A DNA stretch of 12,799 nucleotides from a virus (IMGVR_UViG_2693429524_000004:1-12799), one strand, 5' to 3'. Counted from the first letter of the stretch, positions 3,001 through 6,000 are shown. Numbers: made by a program.

Positions 3001-6000
3001 TCGGAAGGGCAGCCAGCAACAGGCCACCCTGCAATGGCATATTGCATGGTGTGCTCCTTATTTATACATAACGAAAACGCCTCGAGTGAAGCGTTATTGG
3101 TATGCATATAAAAAAGCCCTCACACTGGAGGGAAAAGAAGATTTCCAATAATCAGAACAAGTCGGCTCCTGTTTAGTTACGAGCGACATTGCTCCGTGTA
3201 TTCACTCGTTGGAATGAATACACAGTGCTTATTCGCAGCCTACATAATCATTCCGGTTATTATTACCATTTCAATATCACTATCTTTCATAATGATTGGA
3301 GTTGAGTTATCAACTTTACTTTTACTCCATTTTCCTGCATCAGTTTTTACCGCTCCACAATAAGAAAGCCAATCATCATCACAATGTTCTGGATCACTAA
3401 TTCTGACAAGAACACGTGATAGTGCTTTTTCGATACTTTCATCACAATTAGCATTTGTGTAATTGCCGTGAGACAATTTCAAATCGTTAACTTCATCTTC
3501 ATTGGCATCAAAAATATAGATTTCAGTCGACTCTGGAACATTTTCATAAACCATTAAAACTTTCATTTTTACCCCATATTGTTTATGCCAAAAATAAAGG
3601 CCACCATCAGGCAGCCTTGTTGTAAATGTTGCAGGTATCAAGTAAGTAATTAGATGGAGCGCCATAAATTATGAATTCATCGTTTGTCGGGTCCATCTCT
3701 TGGCCTATTGCCATTCTTGCGTCAGTGTCATCAGAGGCGAAGCATAAAACAGCCCACGCACCCATTGTTTTAAAAAGAACTGCAATTGGCTGTGGTTTTA
3801 CTGAATTTGCGTTAGCGCGAAAATCACAAATCGCACTTTCATGAAATTCCATATCTCAACTCAATCGTAATAAGCTGGAATTGATTTTCCGCGTTGTTTC
3901 TGGCGGCCTGAGCAAGTCACACCCATTTCACTGCGTGGCTTGCTGTAGTAAATACGGTTCTGTTTACGCTCGACTTCTTCTGCCTTCTTGCAGCGAAGGC
4001 TTCCGAGTGATATTGCTTTTTCAGAAAGGCTTAAACGTTTTCTCGGGGCTTCCTGAACAGGTTCCTCACTGTCTGTGCCGAAGATCGAATCGATGATGTT
4101 GCATATAGCATCACGCTCGATAGCCAGCTTTCTGCGCCGCTCATGACGGCGAGTTTTGGCATTTCCTGCAAATGTTGATTTCCCGCACACGATTACCGTC
4201 ATGATATTTTCCTCATGTGAAATGGCTTTGGTGGTGATGCGCCAGGTGCTGATCTTCTGGTTGCTGTCGTTGCAGCTGCAATTCACATCACCGCCAAACC
4301 CATCTCGTTTGGTATCTGTTTGCGCTTTGTCAGCGCCCCATCGAAGTTAAAGAGCCTGCCAATCTGTTCCGTTTGGCTTCCAGCTTCCTGCTGATGGCGA
4401 TAATAATGAACCAATGGTTCGATATTATCAAGAACTAATGGTACGAAAATTTTGTGATTTATTAACTCTACGAAATATGATTTTGATATATAAGGAAATT
4501 TATTTTTGTAAATGTTGCGGATGAAGGTTATGCGGCAGGGATCAGAATTTCGTGGTTTAGCAAGTTGTATCTATCAATTTTTCAATAAATACAATTGGTT
4601 ATGGTGTTATTAGGTGTGGCGAACGTGAGGCAAAGAAAACCCGGCTCGGTGGCCGGGTTGATGATTAGCGGTGTGGCCTTGAGCGATAATGCTCACACAC
4701 ATGTTCAAGATTTCCATGCCTTATCCGTTCATAGGCATTCACATGAACTTCTCGATCGAATTGGTCATTCAAATTGTATGTAGACATCTGTGTTTTCTCA
4801 TATTGGCGGCAGCCCTACAACCGCTTGAAAAAATGTACCAGACGCGCTAAGGTTACATCGCAAATATTGTGTACCTTAACAAGGGCTCCTTTTGGAGGCT
4901 CTGGTTAAACAGCATCAATGTCGGACTGGGGAGTTGGACATTGTGCTGAATGCTTTTGCATTATTGAGGCCGAACGTAAACCTTCAGAATTGAAGAGATG
5001 CGTTCGGCTTCTTCGTTTGTGATATCGTTAGGAATGCCTTTAATCGTTACTGTAACCCCTGATTCAGGTCGAAGAACTACTGGAAGATCATAGGTATGAA
5101 GTGCATTAGCCTTGCCTTCGACTTTTGTTGGTTCGCCAGCCAAATCTTTTTCCTCACTGGATTCTTTGTCAATCGGAGTGTATGGGATTTCTTCACCAGA
5201 CTGGAAAGCTACAAACTTTTTGATTGCACTTTCCATGCGGCTTTTATATGCAGTAATGCTGCTGTCGCTAGGCTTCGGCTCAGTTGCGTTGATGTATCGC
5301 TCGGCAAGCTCATTCACATCAAGCTGAGTAACATCACCCATTTCCTCTTCTTGGACTACCGTTAAGAGGCGAGCGGATGAGTTTTTTAAATTTCGAGCGG
5401 TGGCCTCCTTCATTATGTTCAGCGACATAAGCTCTTCAAGGAAGTCCTTGAATGCCTGCACGCTAACGTTTGACTTTGCCATTTGCTCTCTCTCTAAGTT
5501 ATTGACTCAGATCGAGTTTATCCAGGAATTGATTTGCATGCAAGACTCAAGTCTTGAGAATTTCCGTTCAAGATCCACTCTCAATAAAAAAGGCCGCACC
5601 TCTGCGACCTTTCATCTCCTAAATCTATTTCTCTTACCTAAAGAAACAGCAGGCTGGGTCAGCCCTAACAACTTCAAGCGCATCAGTCAGCGAAAGTTCA
5701 GTACTGTACTGATGCCATTTCATATCCTTCCGCATCCAATAGATTTTCCATCTATCCAGAGAACGTATGTACTTGATTCTTGCTGATGGCAGGATGTTTG
5801 TTTCACCTGGGTTGCCCTGCCACACGGGGCGCTGTTCGCCGATATCTATCGTTTGGTCATTGATGCTATAAACAATATCCAGTTCATTGCGGATATGTTC
5901 AGGCGGCCTTATGCTTTCAATGAATTGGTGAACTTCTTTTTTGACCGCTTGATATTCAAGGTCAGTGAACGCCATCTATCCTCCTCACCCAAACGTTTCT

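What the first reader, a model, noticed from the sequence alone, without database searches (positions are those of the whole stretch)
3240..3852. Two small acidic ORFs directly after N, in the ral/anti-restriction slot
Seen in sequence: an 81-aa ORF starts 9 nt after the N stop and a strongly acidic ORF of about 108 aa follows (net charge roughly -11 by my count). Established knowledge: the first genes of the N-dependent pL transcript include anti-restriction functions such as ral, and acidic DNA-mimic proteins are a recurring anti-defence solution. Inference: these may be anti-restriction or anti-defence proteins. Neither was recognisable from memory.
Basis: partly seen in the sequence, partly recalled or inferred. 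Interest (0 to 1): 0.6.

Follow-up and report, generated by a model that had tools for sequence, protein, structure and literature searches.

The report
Two uncharacterised early phage accessory genes
Right after the antiterminator gene N of a lambda-like phage sit two real, conserved small acidic genes of unknown function in the slot where related phages carry anti-restriction genes; they are reasonable but unproven anti-defence candidates, and the second is predicted with high confidence to have a fold unlike any solved structure.

Summary
An 81-aa ORF (3607-3852, minus strand) starts 8 nt after the N stop. A 108-aa ORF (3240-3566, minus) follows, with net charge -11 and pI 4.36. Both are real genes: dN/dS is 0.12 and 0.075, and each matches a full-length PHROG family of unknown function. 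They are unrelated to each other and assort independently in the hypervariable N-cIII slot.

orf81 is the VT2-Sakai orf20 family, found in 7% of complete E. coli genomes. It lies before the first terminator after N, so it should be made together with N. orf108 is a precise, low-GC insertion of about 350 bp between two terminators. It is rare (16 of 5,426 genomes). Distant relatives follow N in other lambdoids and sit in early regions of T4-like and other large phages.

Related prophages carry Ral, Nmad5 or a superinfection exclusion gene beside orf108. This confirms the slot, but also shows orf108 accompanies Ral and does not replace it.

The anti-defence reading remains plausible for orf108 and is weakened for orf81. 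It is proven for neither.

The parts
3861..4202 (-). Antiterminator N gene (113 aa from the ATG at 4202). It is the upstream anchor of the accessory slot.
   Evidence: Pfam N_peptide 3.9e-25; phrog_271 8.4e-45.
3607..3852 (-). orf81: an 81-aa soluble, mildly acidic protein of the VT2-Sakai orf20 / mEp234 gp34 family (phrog_2471). It begins 8 nt after the N stop and ends inside the first terminator hairpin.
3597..3618 (-). Intrinsic-terminator-like hairpin (9-bp stem, -13.9 kcal/mol, then UUUAUUUUU). It is the tL1 equivalent and serves as a shared junction between cassettes.
   Evidence: The same element is annotated as a rho-independent terminator in mEp234. The segment 3591-3623 also follows Ral in CP122938.
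3229..3578 (-). Low-GC (about 0.32-0.36) insertion of about 350 bp, relative to VT2-Sakai and mEp234. It carries only orf108 and its ribosome-binding site.
   Evidence: In VT2-Sakai and mEp234 the pairwise BLAST flanks are about 13 nt apart. Composition profile.
3240..3566 (-). orf108: a 108-aa acidic protein (net -11, pI 4.36), phrog_4658. It has a confidently predicted alpha/beta fold with no solved relative.
3117..3132 (-). Second terminator-like hairpin (CCCUC...GAGGG followed by U6), downstream of orf108.
   Evidence: It corresponds to the second annotated terminator in mEp234.
2907..3060 (-). cIII gene with its 5' thermoregulator RNA. It is the downstream anchor of the slot.
   Evidence: Pfam Lambda_CIII 3.1e-30. 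Rfam Lambda_thermo 88.5 bits at 3002-3060.

Best explanation
These are two independent single-gene accessory cassettes in the hypervariable N-cIII slot of the early-left (pL) operon of a lambdoid, Stx-phage-like genome. orf81 is transcribed with N, upstream of the first intrinsic terminator, so it should be made in the very first minutes of infection or induction without needing antitermination. orf108 is a low-GC insertion between that terminator and the next. It has no convincing promoter of its own, so it should be expressed only once N has antiterminated pL transcription. Both are small, soluble, non-enzymatic-looking proteins under strong purifying selection. The most likely mode of action is stoichiometric binding and neutralisation of a host macromolecule early in lytic growth, that is, counter-defence or host takeover. 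orf108 is the stronger candidate. It probably acts through a discrete conserved polar/aromatic site (E12, H33, Y36, N38, K79, W80, T104) on an acidic scaffold. Shown here: gene reality, cassette anatomy, slot, phylogenetic spread, and the absence of any known family or fold. Inferred: the expression timing (from the terminator positions) and the whole functional assignment.
For: Real genes. Slot and mosaicism: orf108 is found with at least six different neighbour sets, always between N and cIII. These are N-orf81, N-104aa, N-Nmad5-...-sie, Ral, Ral-Nmad5 and Ral-67aa. Diverged members (42-44% identity) directly follow N in two other lambdoids. No partner gene recurs. Family members also lie in early regions of virulent or large phages: RB16 between t and ndd, and a contig carrying ligase, dUTPase and RdgC genes. 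A function useful to both temperate and virulent phages early in infection fits host takeover or counter-defence. Terminators flank the cassette. The insertion is precise. Acidity is conserved across the orf108 family (median -11). There are no TM segments (TMHMM 0 for UDP0060). Known counter-defence genes share the slot (Ral), and the same phage carries others elsewhere (Abc2 and Dam).
Against: There is no functional evidence for either protein. The only experiment touching either gene, the Silas et al. 200-gene screen that included a 98%-identical orf81 homologue, reports no sensitising or toxic phenotype for it. Guilt by association in this slot is weak, because the slot also holds superinfection exclusion genes (sieB-like), ssb-like ea10 and nucleotide-modification genes. 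Many phage early proteins are acidic for unrelated reasons. The expression timing is inferred from sequence only.
Confidence: 0.42

Rival explanations
1. This is the first reader's specific version: one or both proteins are DNA-mimic anti-restriction proteins that occupy the DNA-binding groove of type I or other restriction enzymes, as Ocr, ArdA and Arn do.
For: orf108 has net charge -11, pI 4.36 and a charge density of -0.102 per residue, equal to T4 Arn at -0.098. The acidity is conserved in most family members. It sits in the Ral slot. In RB16 the homologue lies in the t-ndd early region, which in T4 holds arn and stp (own knowledge).
Confidence: 0.12
2. These are prophage-encoded defence or superinfection-exclusion morons that protect the lysogen against other phages, like sieB or rexAB in the neighbouring positions.
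For: The same slot carries superinfection exclusion genes in relatives. orf108 has the low GC content and precise insertion typical of a moron.
Against: No convincing own promoter was found; promoter-like hits are at chance level, 5 found against 5.3 expected. Both genes lie in the repressed pL transcript, and orf108 lies behind a terminator. There are no PADLOC matches and no membrane segments. Homologues occur in strictly virulent T4-like phages, which form no lysogens.
Confidence: 0.08
3. These are phage-internal accessory regulators. For example, orf81 could modulate N, cII or cIII stability or pL transcription, and orf108 could assist recombination or replication. Neither would have anything to do with host immunity.
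For: orf81 is tightly apposed to N (8 nt) and sits upstream of tL1 in every lambdoid examined. Its core is extremely conserved across Escherichia, Salmonella, Citrobacter, Klebsiella and Enterobacter (33 invariant columns), as expected for a conserved housekeeping target. It has no reported phenotype in the anti-defence screen. The slot also houses cIII, kil and ea10, which are not anti-defence genes.
Against: orf81 is combined with at least three unrelated N alleles, with the homology break exactly at the N stop. In a P22-like phage it follows sieB and not N. Most lambdoids lack both genes (orf81 in 7% and orf108 in 0.3% of E. coli genomes), so neither is part of the core circuitry. orf108 relatives function in T4-like genomes that have no N/cII/cIII system.
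Confidence: 0.2
4. orf108 is a small-molecule 'sponge' or binder that sequesters a host immune signalling nucleotide, or another ligand, in a pocket formed by its conserved His, Tyr, Asn, Trp and Lys residues.
For: The pattern of conserved polar and aromatic residues (H33 0.89, Y36 0.83, N38 0.94, W80 0.83, K79, E12, T104, G105) sits in an otherwise fast-evolving 108-aa protein. Size and early expression resemble Tad and Acb sponges (own knowledge).
Against: There is no structural similarity to any solved sponge. The conserved residues could equally be structural or form a protein-protein interface.
Confidence: 0.07

Closest known systems
Ral (PF11058), the lambda/P22 restriction-alleviation protein
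   Same: Same genomic slot: the first genes after N in the pL operon. Ral lies directly beside orf108 in three related prophages. It is also a small protein without enzymatic motifs.
   Different: No sequence relationship: no Pfam Ral hit at E<=1, and hhalign probability 0.15%. Ral is basic (+3, pI 8.8). orf108 co-occurs with Ral and does not replace it.
T4 Arn and T7 Ocr (acidic DNA-mimic anti-restriction proteins)
   Same: Small early-expressed acidic proteins. orf108's charge density (-0.102 per residue) equals that of Arn (-0.098).
VT2-Sakai orf20 (VT2-Sap20) / mEp234 gp34 / Silas et al. orf60 (phrog_2471)
   Same: orf81 is a member at 96-98% identity, in the same position after N and ending in the same terminator.
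   Different: The window copy lacks two residues, one EM of an EMEM repeat. The family has no assigned function.
phrog_4658 / RB16p265 / Citrobacter phage IME-CF2 A0A0K0QSJ7 (uncharacterised early proteins)
   Same: orf108 is a full-length member. It has the same predicted fold as the BFVD models (TM 0.86, E 3e-11).
   Different: It is only 25-35% identical to the members in virulent phages. Here it is embedded in a lambdoid pL operon instead of a T4-like early region.
Morons in the sense of Hendrix and colleagues (single-gene insertions in lambdoid genomes)
   Same: The orf108 cassette is a precise, gene-sized, compositionally deviant insertion between conserved backbone sequences.
   Different: Classical morons carry their own promoter and are expressed from the prophage. 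No convincing promoter was found here, and the cassette lies within the repressed pL transcript, between terminators.

Membership tests
Ral anti-restriction family (PF11058) | Sequence match to the Ral profile | tested here: not met
   No Pfam hit at E<=1 for either ORF. hhalign of A3 against Ral gives probability 0.15%.
Ral anti-restriction family (PF11058) | Alleviation of type I (EcoKI/EcoBI) restriction | not testable with these tools
   Indirect only: the orf81 homologue UDP0060 is not listed among the hits (ardA, ral, ocr) in the MG1655 + lambda screen of Silas et al.. orf108 has never been tested.
DNA-mimic anti-restriction proteins (Ocr, ArdA, Arn type) | High density of surface acidic residues, conserved across the family | tested here: inconclusive
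   orf108 is at -0.102 per residue, like Arn but well below Ocr. The family median is -11, but some members are neutral. orf81 is at -0.074 per residue with a family median net charge of -3.5.
DNA-mimic anti-restriction proteins (Ocr, ArdA, Arn type) | Fold or charge array superposable on B-DNA, or structural similarity to a known mimic | tested here: not met
phrog_2471 (VT2-Sakai orf20-like) | Full-length profile match | tested here: met
   E 1.9e-57, residues 1-81 on profile positions 1-83 of 83.
phrog_4658 | Full-length profile match | tested here: met
   E 2.4e-38, residues 1-108 on profile positions 2-109 of 109.
Known anti-phage defence proteins (PADLOC-DB) | Match to any defence-system profile | tested here: not met
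   No PADLOC hits at E<=1 for either ORF.
Moron (autonomous prophage-expressed insertion) | Precise gene-sized insertion with deviant composition | tested here: met
   3229-3578 is absent from VT2-Sakai and mEp234, where the flanks are about 13 nt apart. GC is 0.32-0.36 against 0.46 for the window.
Moron (autonomous prophage-expressed insertion) | Own promoter upstream of the inserted gene | tested here: not met
   No sigma-70-like site lies between the terminator (3597) and the start codon (3566). Region-wide promoter-like hits are at chance level, 5 against 5.3 expected.

The most novel reading that the evidence does not exclude
orf108 may found a new, structurally novel family of phage counter-defence proteins shared by temperate lambdoid and virulent T4-like enterobacterial phages. 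It would act through a conserved His/Tyr/Asn/Trp/Lys site on an acidic scaffold against a host immune component not covered by Ral, either as a protein inhibitor or nucleic-acid mimic, or as a signalling-molecule sponge.
Probability: 0.3. Interest if true: 0.65.

Novelty: new member of a known kind. Interest (0 to 1): 0.35.

Why it matters
The N-cIII interval of lambdoid phages is a recognised hotspot for counter-defence genes, and each uncharacterised cassette there is a candidate inhibitor of a bacterial immune system. orf108 is a good target for follow-up. It is short, predicted with very high confidence, unlike any solved fold, conserved from lambdoid prophages to T4-like lytic phages, and found next to Ral. 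If it inhibits a defence system, it would add a new fold and possibly a new mechanism to the anti-defence repertoire. orf81 matters mainly because it is common in Shiga-toxin phages, where it is co-transcribed with N. A function in early induction could bear on Stx phage biology. As things stand, both are ordinary hypothetical phage genes with suggestive context.

Tried and rejected
Sequence and profile searches:
- Pfam, NCBIfam, PADLOC and PDB-sequence profile searches gave nothing significant for either protein or either family alignment.
- The word-indexed homologue search found only close relatives.
- hhalign against Arn, Ocr and Ral, and between the two families, found no relationship.

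Structure searches:
- AFDB50 was not available.
- BFVD returned only uncharacterised family members.

Context searches:
- The search for related loci with the orf108 family alignment failed because the alignment had no stretch conserved enough to search with.
- A search for a conserved partner gene beside orf108 across 13 loci found none beyond backbone N, cIII and kil.

Literature:
- Searches by accession, PHROG id and topic found no characterisation.
- A motif search of the Silas gene list found no orf108-family member.

Rejected reading:
- I rejected the 141-aa reading of the second ORF. Its first 33 codons overlap orf81 and the terminator, and they correspond to the dubious VT2-Sakai orf19.

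Full report
**Setting.** The window is the early region of a lambdoid phage or prophage. Its closest database relatives are Stx2a-converting phages, at 61% coverage and 97% identity, and no record is collinear throughout. The leftward pL operon runs on the minus strand. It contains cI (6036-6743), N (3861-4202; Pfam N_peptide 3.9e-25), cIII (2907-3047; Lambda_CIII 3.1e-30, with the Rfam cIII thermoregulator at 3002-3060) and kil (2801-2920). Further on come a Sak4-type ATPase, a DUF669-like protein and an Abc2 anti-RecBCD protein. The finding concerns the interval between N and cIII.

**Observation.** It is correct in every particular. The N stop codon is at 3861-3863 and the ATG of an 81-codon ORF is at 3852, leaving 8 intergenic nt. 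A second ORF follows, running from the ATG at 3566 to the stop at 3240, with a GGGG Shine-Dalgarno sequence 6 nt upstream. It encodes 108 aa with net charge -11 and pI 4.36. RefSeq calls exactly this 327-nt CDS in every E. coli genome that has it, and the family alignment begins at this Met. The mechanical ORF list gives a 141-aa version starting at 3665. Its extra 33 codons overlap the 3' end of orf81 and a terminator hairpin, and they match phrog_31828, the family of the dubious 51-aa VT2-Sakai 'orf19'. I treat the long form as an artefact.

**Both ORFs are real genes.** Each gives a full-length match to a PHROG family of unknown function: phrog_2471 at 1.9e-57 and phrog_4658 at 2.4e-38. Nei-Gojobori estimates against diverged homologues show strong purifying selection. 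For orf108 against an 82%-identical copy, dN/dS is 0.075 (dS 1.3). For orf81 against a 77%-identical Salmonella phage copy, dN/dS is 0.115 (dS 1.4). Neither protein has a hydrophobic segment compatible with a membrane span. The two families are unrelated to each other.

**Anatomy.**
- A 9-bp GC-rich hairpin (3618-3597, -13.9 kcal/mol) followed by UUUAUUUUU overlaps the orf81 stop codon. The same element is annotated as a rho-independent terminator in phage mEp234. orf81 therefore lies between N and the first terminator of the pL transcript, the position tL1 holds directly after N in lambda (own knowledge). It should be co-expressed with N before antitermination.
- Pairwise BLAST against VT2-Sakai and mEp234 shows that window 3579-3864 and 3110-3228 are backbone sequences lying about 13 nt apart in those phages. 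So 3229-3578 is a precise insertion of about 350 bp containing only orf108 and its ribosome-binding site.
- The insertion is 32-36% GC, against 46% for the window.
- A second terminator-like hairpin follows at 3132-3117.
- No promoter-like site lies between the first terminator and the orf108 start, and promoter-like hits in the region are at chance frequency.
- I infer from this that orf108 is expressed only by N-antiterminated transcription. That is an inference from sequence, not a measurement.

**Distribution and context.**
- orf81 is common. It is found at about 96% identity in 56 phage records, including VT2-Sakai (orf20), many Stx2 phages, HK633, HK106, mEp234 and Gally, and in 403 of 5,426 complete E. 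coli genomes. Relatives at 70-84% identity occur in Salmonella, Citrobacter, Klebsiella and Enterobacter. The homology break with phages carrying other N alleles falls exactly at the N stop. In a P22-like phage the gene follows sieB and not N. It is therefore an independent module.
- orf108 is rare. It occurs in 16 of 5,426 E. coli genomes, all at 97.9% identity or more, and in no sequenced phage at more than 35% identity.
- Its neighbours differ almost every time: N-orf81 (this window and AP043606), N-104aa (CP024228), N-Nmad5-orf108-sie (CM185151), Ral-orf108 (CP146670), Ral-Nmad5-orf108 (CP122938) and Ral-67aa-orf108 (an 82%-identical copy).
- An exhaustive HMMER scan of 1.84 billion cluster representatives found only 59 relatives at E<=1e-3. 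Two of them, at 42-44% identity, directly follow N-like genes in other lambdoids. Others lie in early regions of virulent or large phages: RB16 between t and ndd, a contig with ligase, dUTPase and RdgC genes, and a 161-kb contig.
- No partner gene recurs beside it.

**What the proteins look like.**
- For orf108, AlphaFold2 with a 35-sequence alignment gives a very confident model: mean pLDDT 96.8, pTM 0.88, and all five models at 96.3 or above. It consists of a beta-hairpin, three helices and a C-terminal strand.
- Acidity is a family trait, with median net charge -11, though three or four members are near neutral.
- The best-conserved positions are P11, E12, H33, G34, Y36, N38, G78, K79, W80, T104 and G105. 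Conserved acidic positions are scattered (E8, E12, D20, E23, E25, E43-46, D65, E99).
- No Pfam, NCBIfam, PADLOC or PDB-sequence match exists for either protein. There is no profile similarity to Ral, Arn or Ocr.

**Experimental record.**
- The mEp234 homologue of orf81 (AFM76313.1, 83 aa, 98% identical) is entry UDP0060, that is orf60, in Supplementary File 3 of Silas et al. (bioRxiv 10.1101/2023.04.06.535777). That file lists the 200 accessory genes synthesised and screened in E. coli ECOR hosts, with and without infection by eight model phages.
- orf60 carries no curator comment. It is never mentioned in the main text or in the screen records held.
- The genes named as host-sensitising are orf1, 7, 48, 63, 87, 92, 116, 143 and 169. 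In the MG1655 + lambda screen the recorded hits were ardA, ral and ocr.
- This is weak negative evidence, since the screen used a limited defence repertoire and ectopic expression. It is nonetheless the only evidence there is, and it counts against an EcoKI-type anti-restriction role for orf81.
- No orf108-family member appears in that gene list, judged by a motif search.
- Literature searches by accession, PHROG id and topic found nothing else.

**Interpretation.** Ral genes really do occupy this interval in relatives, and orf81 sits in the most privileged, immediate-early position. The functional inference remains a hypothesis.
- For orf108 the context favours a counter-defence or host-takeover binder. 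The gene is early, it is shared by temperate and virulent phages, it neighbours Ral and Nmad5, its acidity is conserved, and its fold appears novel. I put that broad class at roughly 0.4-0.45.
- Strict DNA mimicry is a minority option for orf108, at about 0.12. The protein co-occurs with Ral, has no mimic-like fold, and has Arn-like but not Ocr-like charge.
- For orf81, an internal regulatory role or an unknown host-directed role is about as likely as anti-defence.
- A prophage-protective role is unlikely for either gene. Neither has its own promoter, both lie in the repressed pL transcript (orf108 also behind a terminator), and orf108 relatives occur in virulent phages.

**Verdict.** This is a correct observation of two genuine but uncharacterised accessory genes in a known hotspot. 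Both families are already catalogued as hypothetical, and one has already been screened without a reported phenotype, so the finding is not surprising to a specialist. orf108 is nevertheless a well-defined, structurally novel candidate worth testing.

Noticed in passing
window 3567-3665 (-): The mechanical 141-aa ORF is an in-frame fusion of an alternative-frame ORF with orf108. That alternative-frame ORF overlaps the orf81 3' end and the terminator, and matches phrog_31828 / VT2-Sakai 'orf19'. It is probably a recurrent annotation artefact in Stx phage records.
   Followed up: partly
window about 3694-3699 (-), within orf81: The window's orf81 lacks two residues, one EM of an EMEM repeat, compared with the 83-aa form. 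The best E. coli matches are 97.6% identical over 252 nt against 246 nt here. It looks like a slipped tandem 6-nt repeat.
   Followed up: partly
window 3591-3623 (-): The terminator hairpin segment recurs 100% identical downstream of Ral in CP122938, and it bounds the homology blocks in several prophages. It appears to act as a shared recombination junction for cassette exchange.
   Followed up: partly
window 3195-3229 (-): A 9-bp inverted repeat (GUGUAUUCA ... UGAAUACAC) lies just downstream of the orf108 stop, in backbone sequence shared with VT2-Sakai and mEp234. Its function is unknown; it might be a processing site or a further terminator element.
   Followed up: no
window 4961-5482 (-) and 5634-5975 (-): Two ORFs lie between cI and N, in the position of rexAB in lambda. 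One is a 173-aa protein with no Pfam match that may correspond to the 173-aa VT2-Sakai orf22 (judged from size and position only, not compared). The other is a 113-aa DUF3024 protein. They may be prophage-expressed genes and could be defence candidates.
   Followed up: no
window 1023-1319 (-), 11909-12439 (+): The phage carries an Abc2-type anti-RecBCD protein (PF11043, 3.3e-35) and a Dam-family N6-adenine methyltransferase (PF05869, 3.4e-65). These are two established or likely counter-defence functions elsewhere in the same window. No Ral gene is present.
   Followed up: partly
window 12573-12785 (+): A NinF-like 70-aa protein is the most acidic protein in the window (-0.157 per residue), with CxxC pairs and a C-terminal EEEDDE tail.
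   Followed up: no
window about 7930-8030 (+): The 265-aa HTH_36 replication-initiator-like protein contains four tandem GGAGAA(R/L) peptide repeats. These imply tandem DNA repeats that could be iterons of an origin embedded in the gene, as in lambda O.
   Followed up: no
L010 2866-3489 and L012 2366-2989: An Nmad5-family putative nucleotide-modification protein occupies the first position after N, or after Ral, in two prophages that carry orf108. This is another uncharacterised candidate in the same slot.
   Followed up: no
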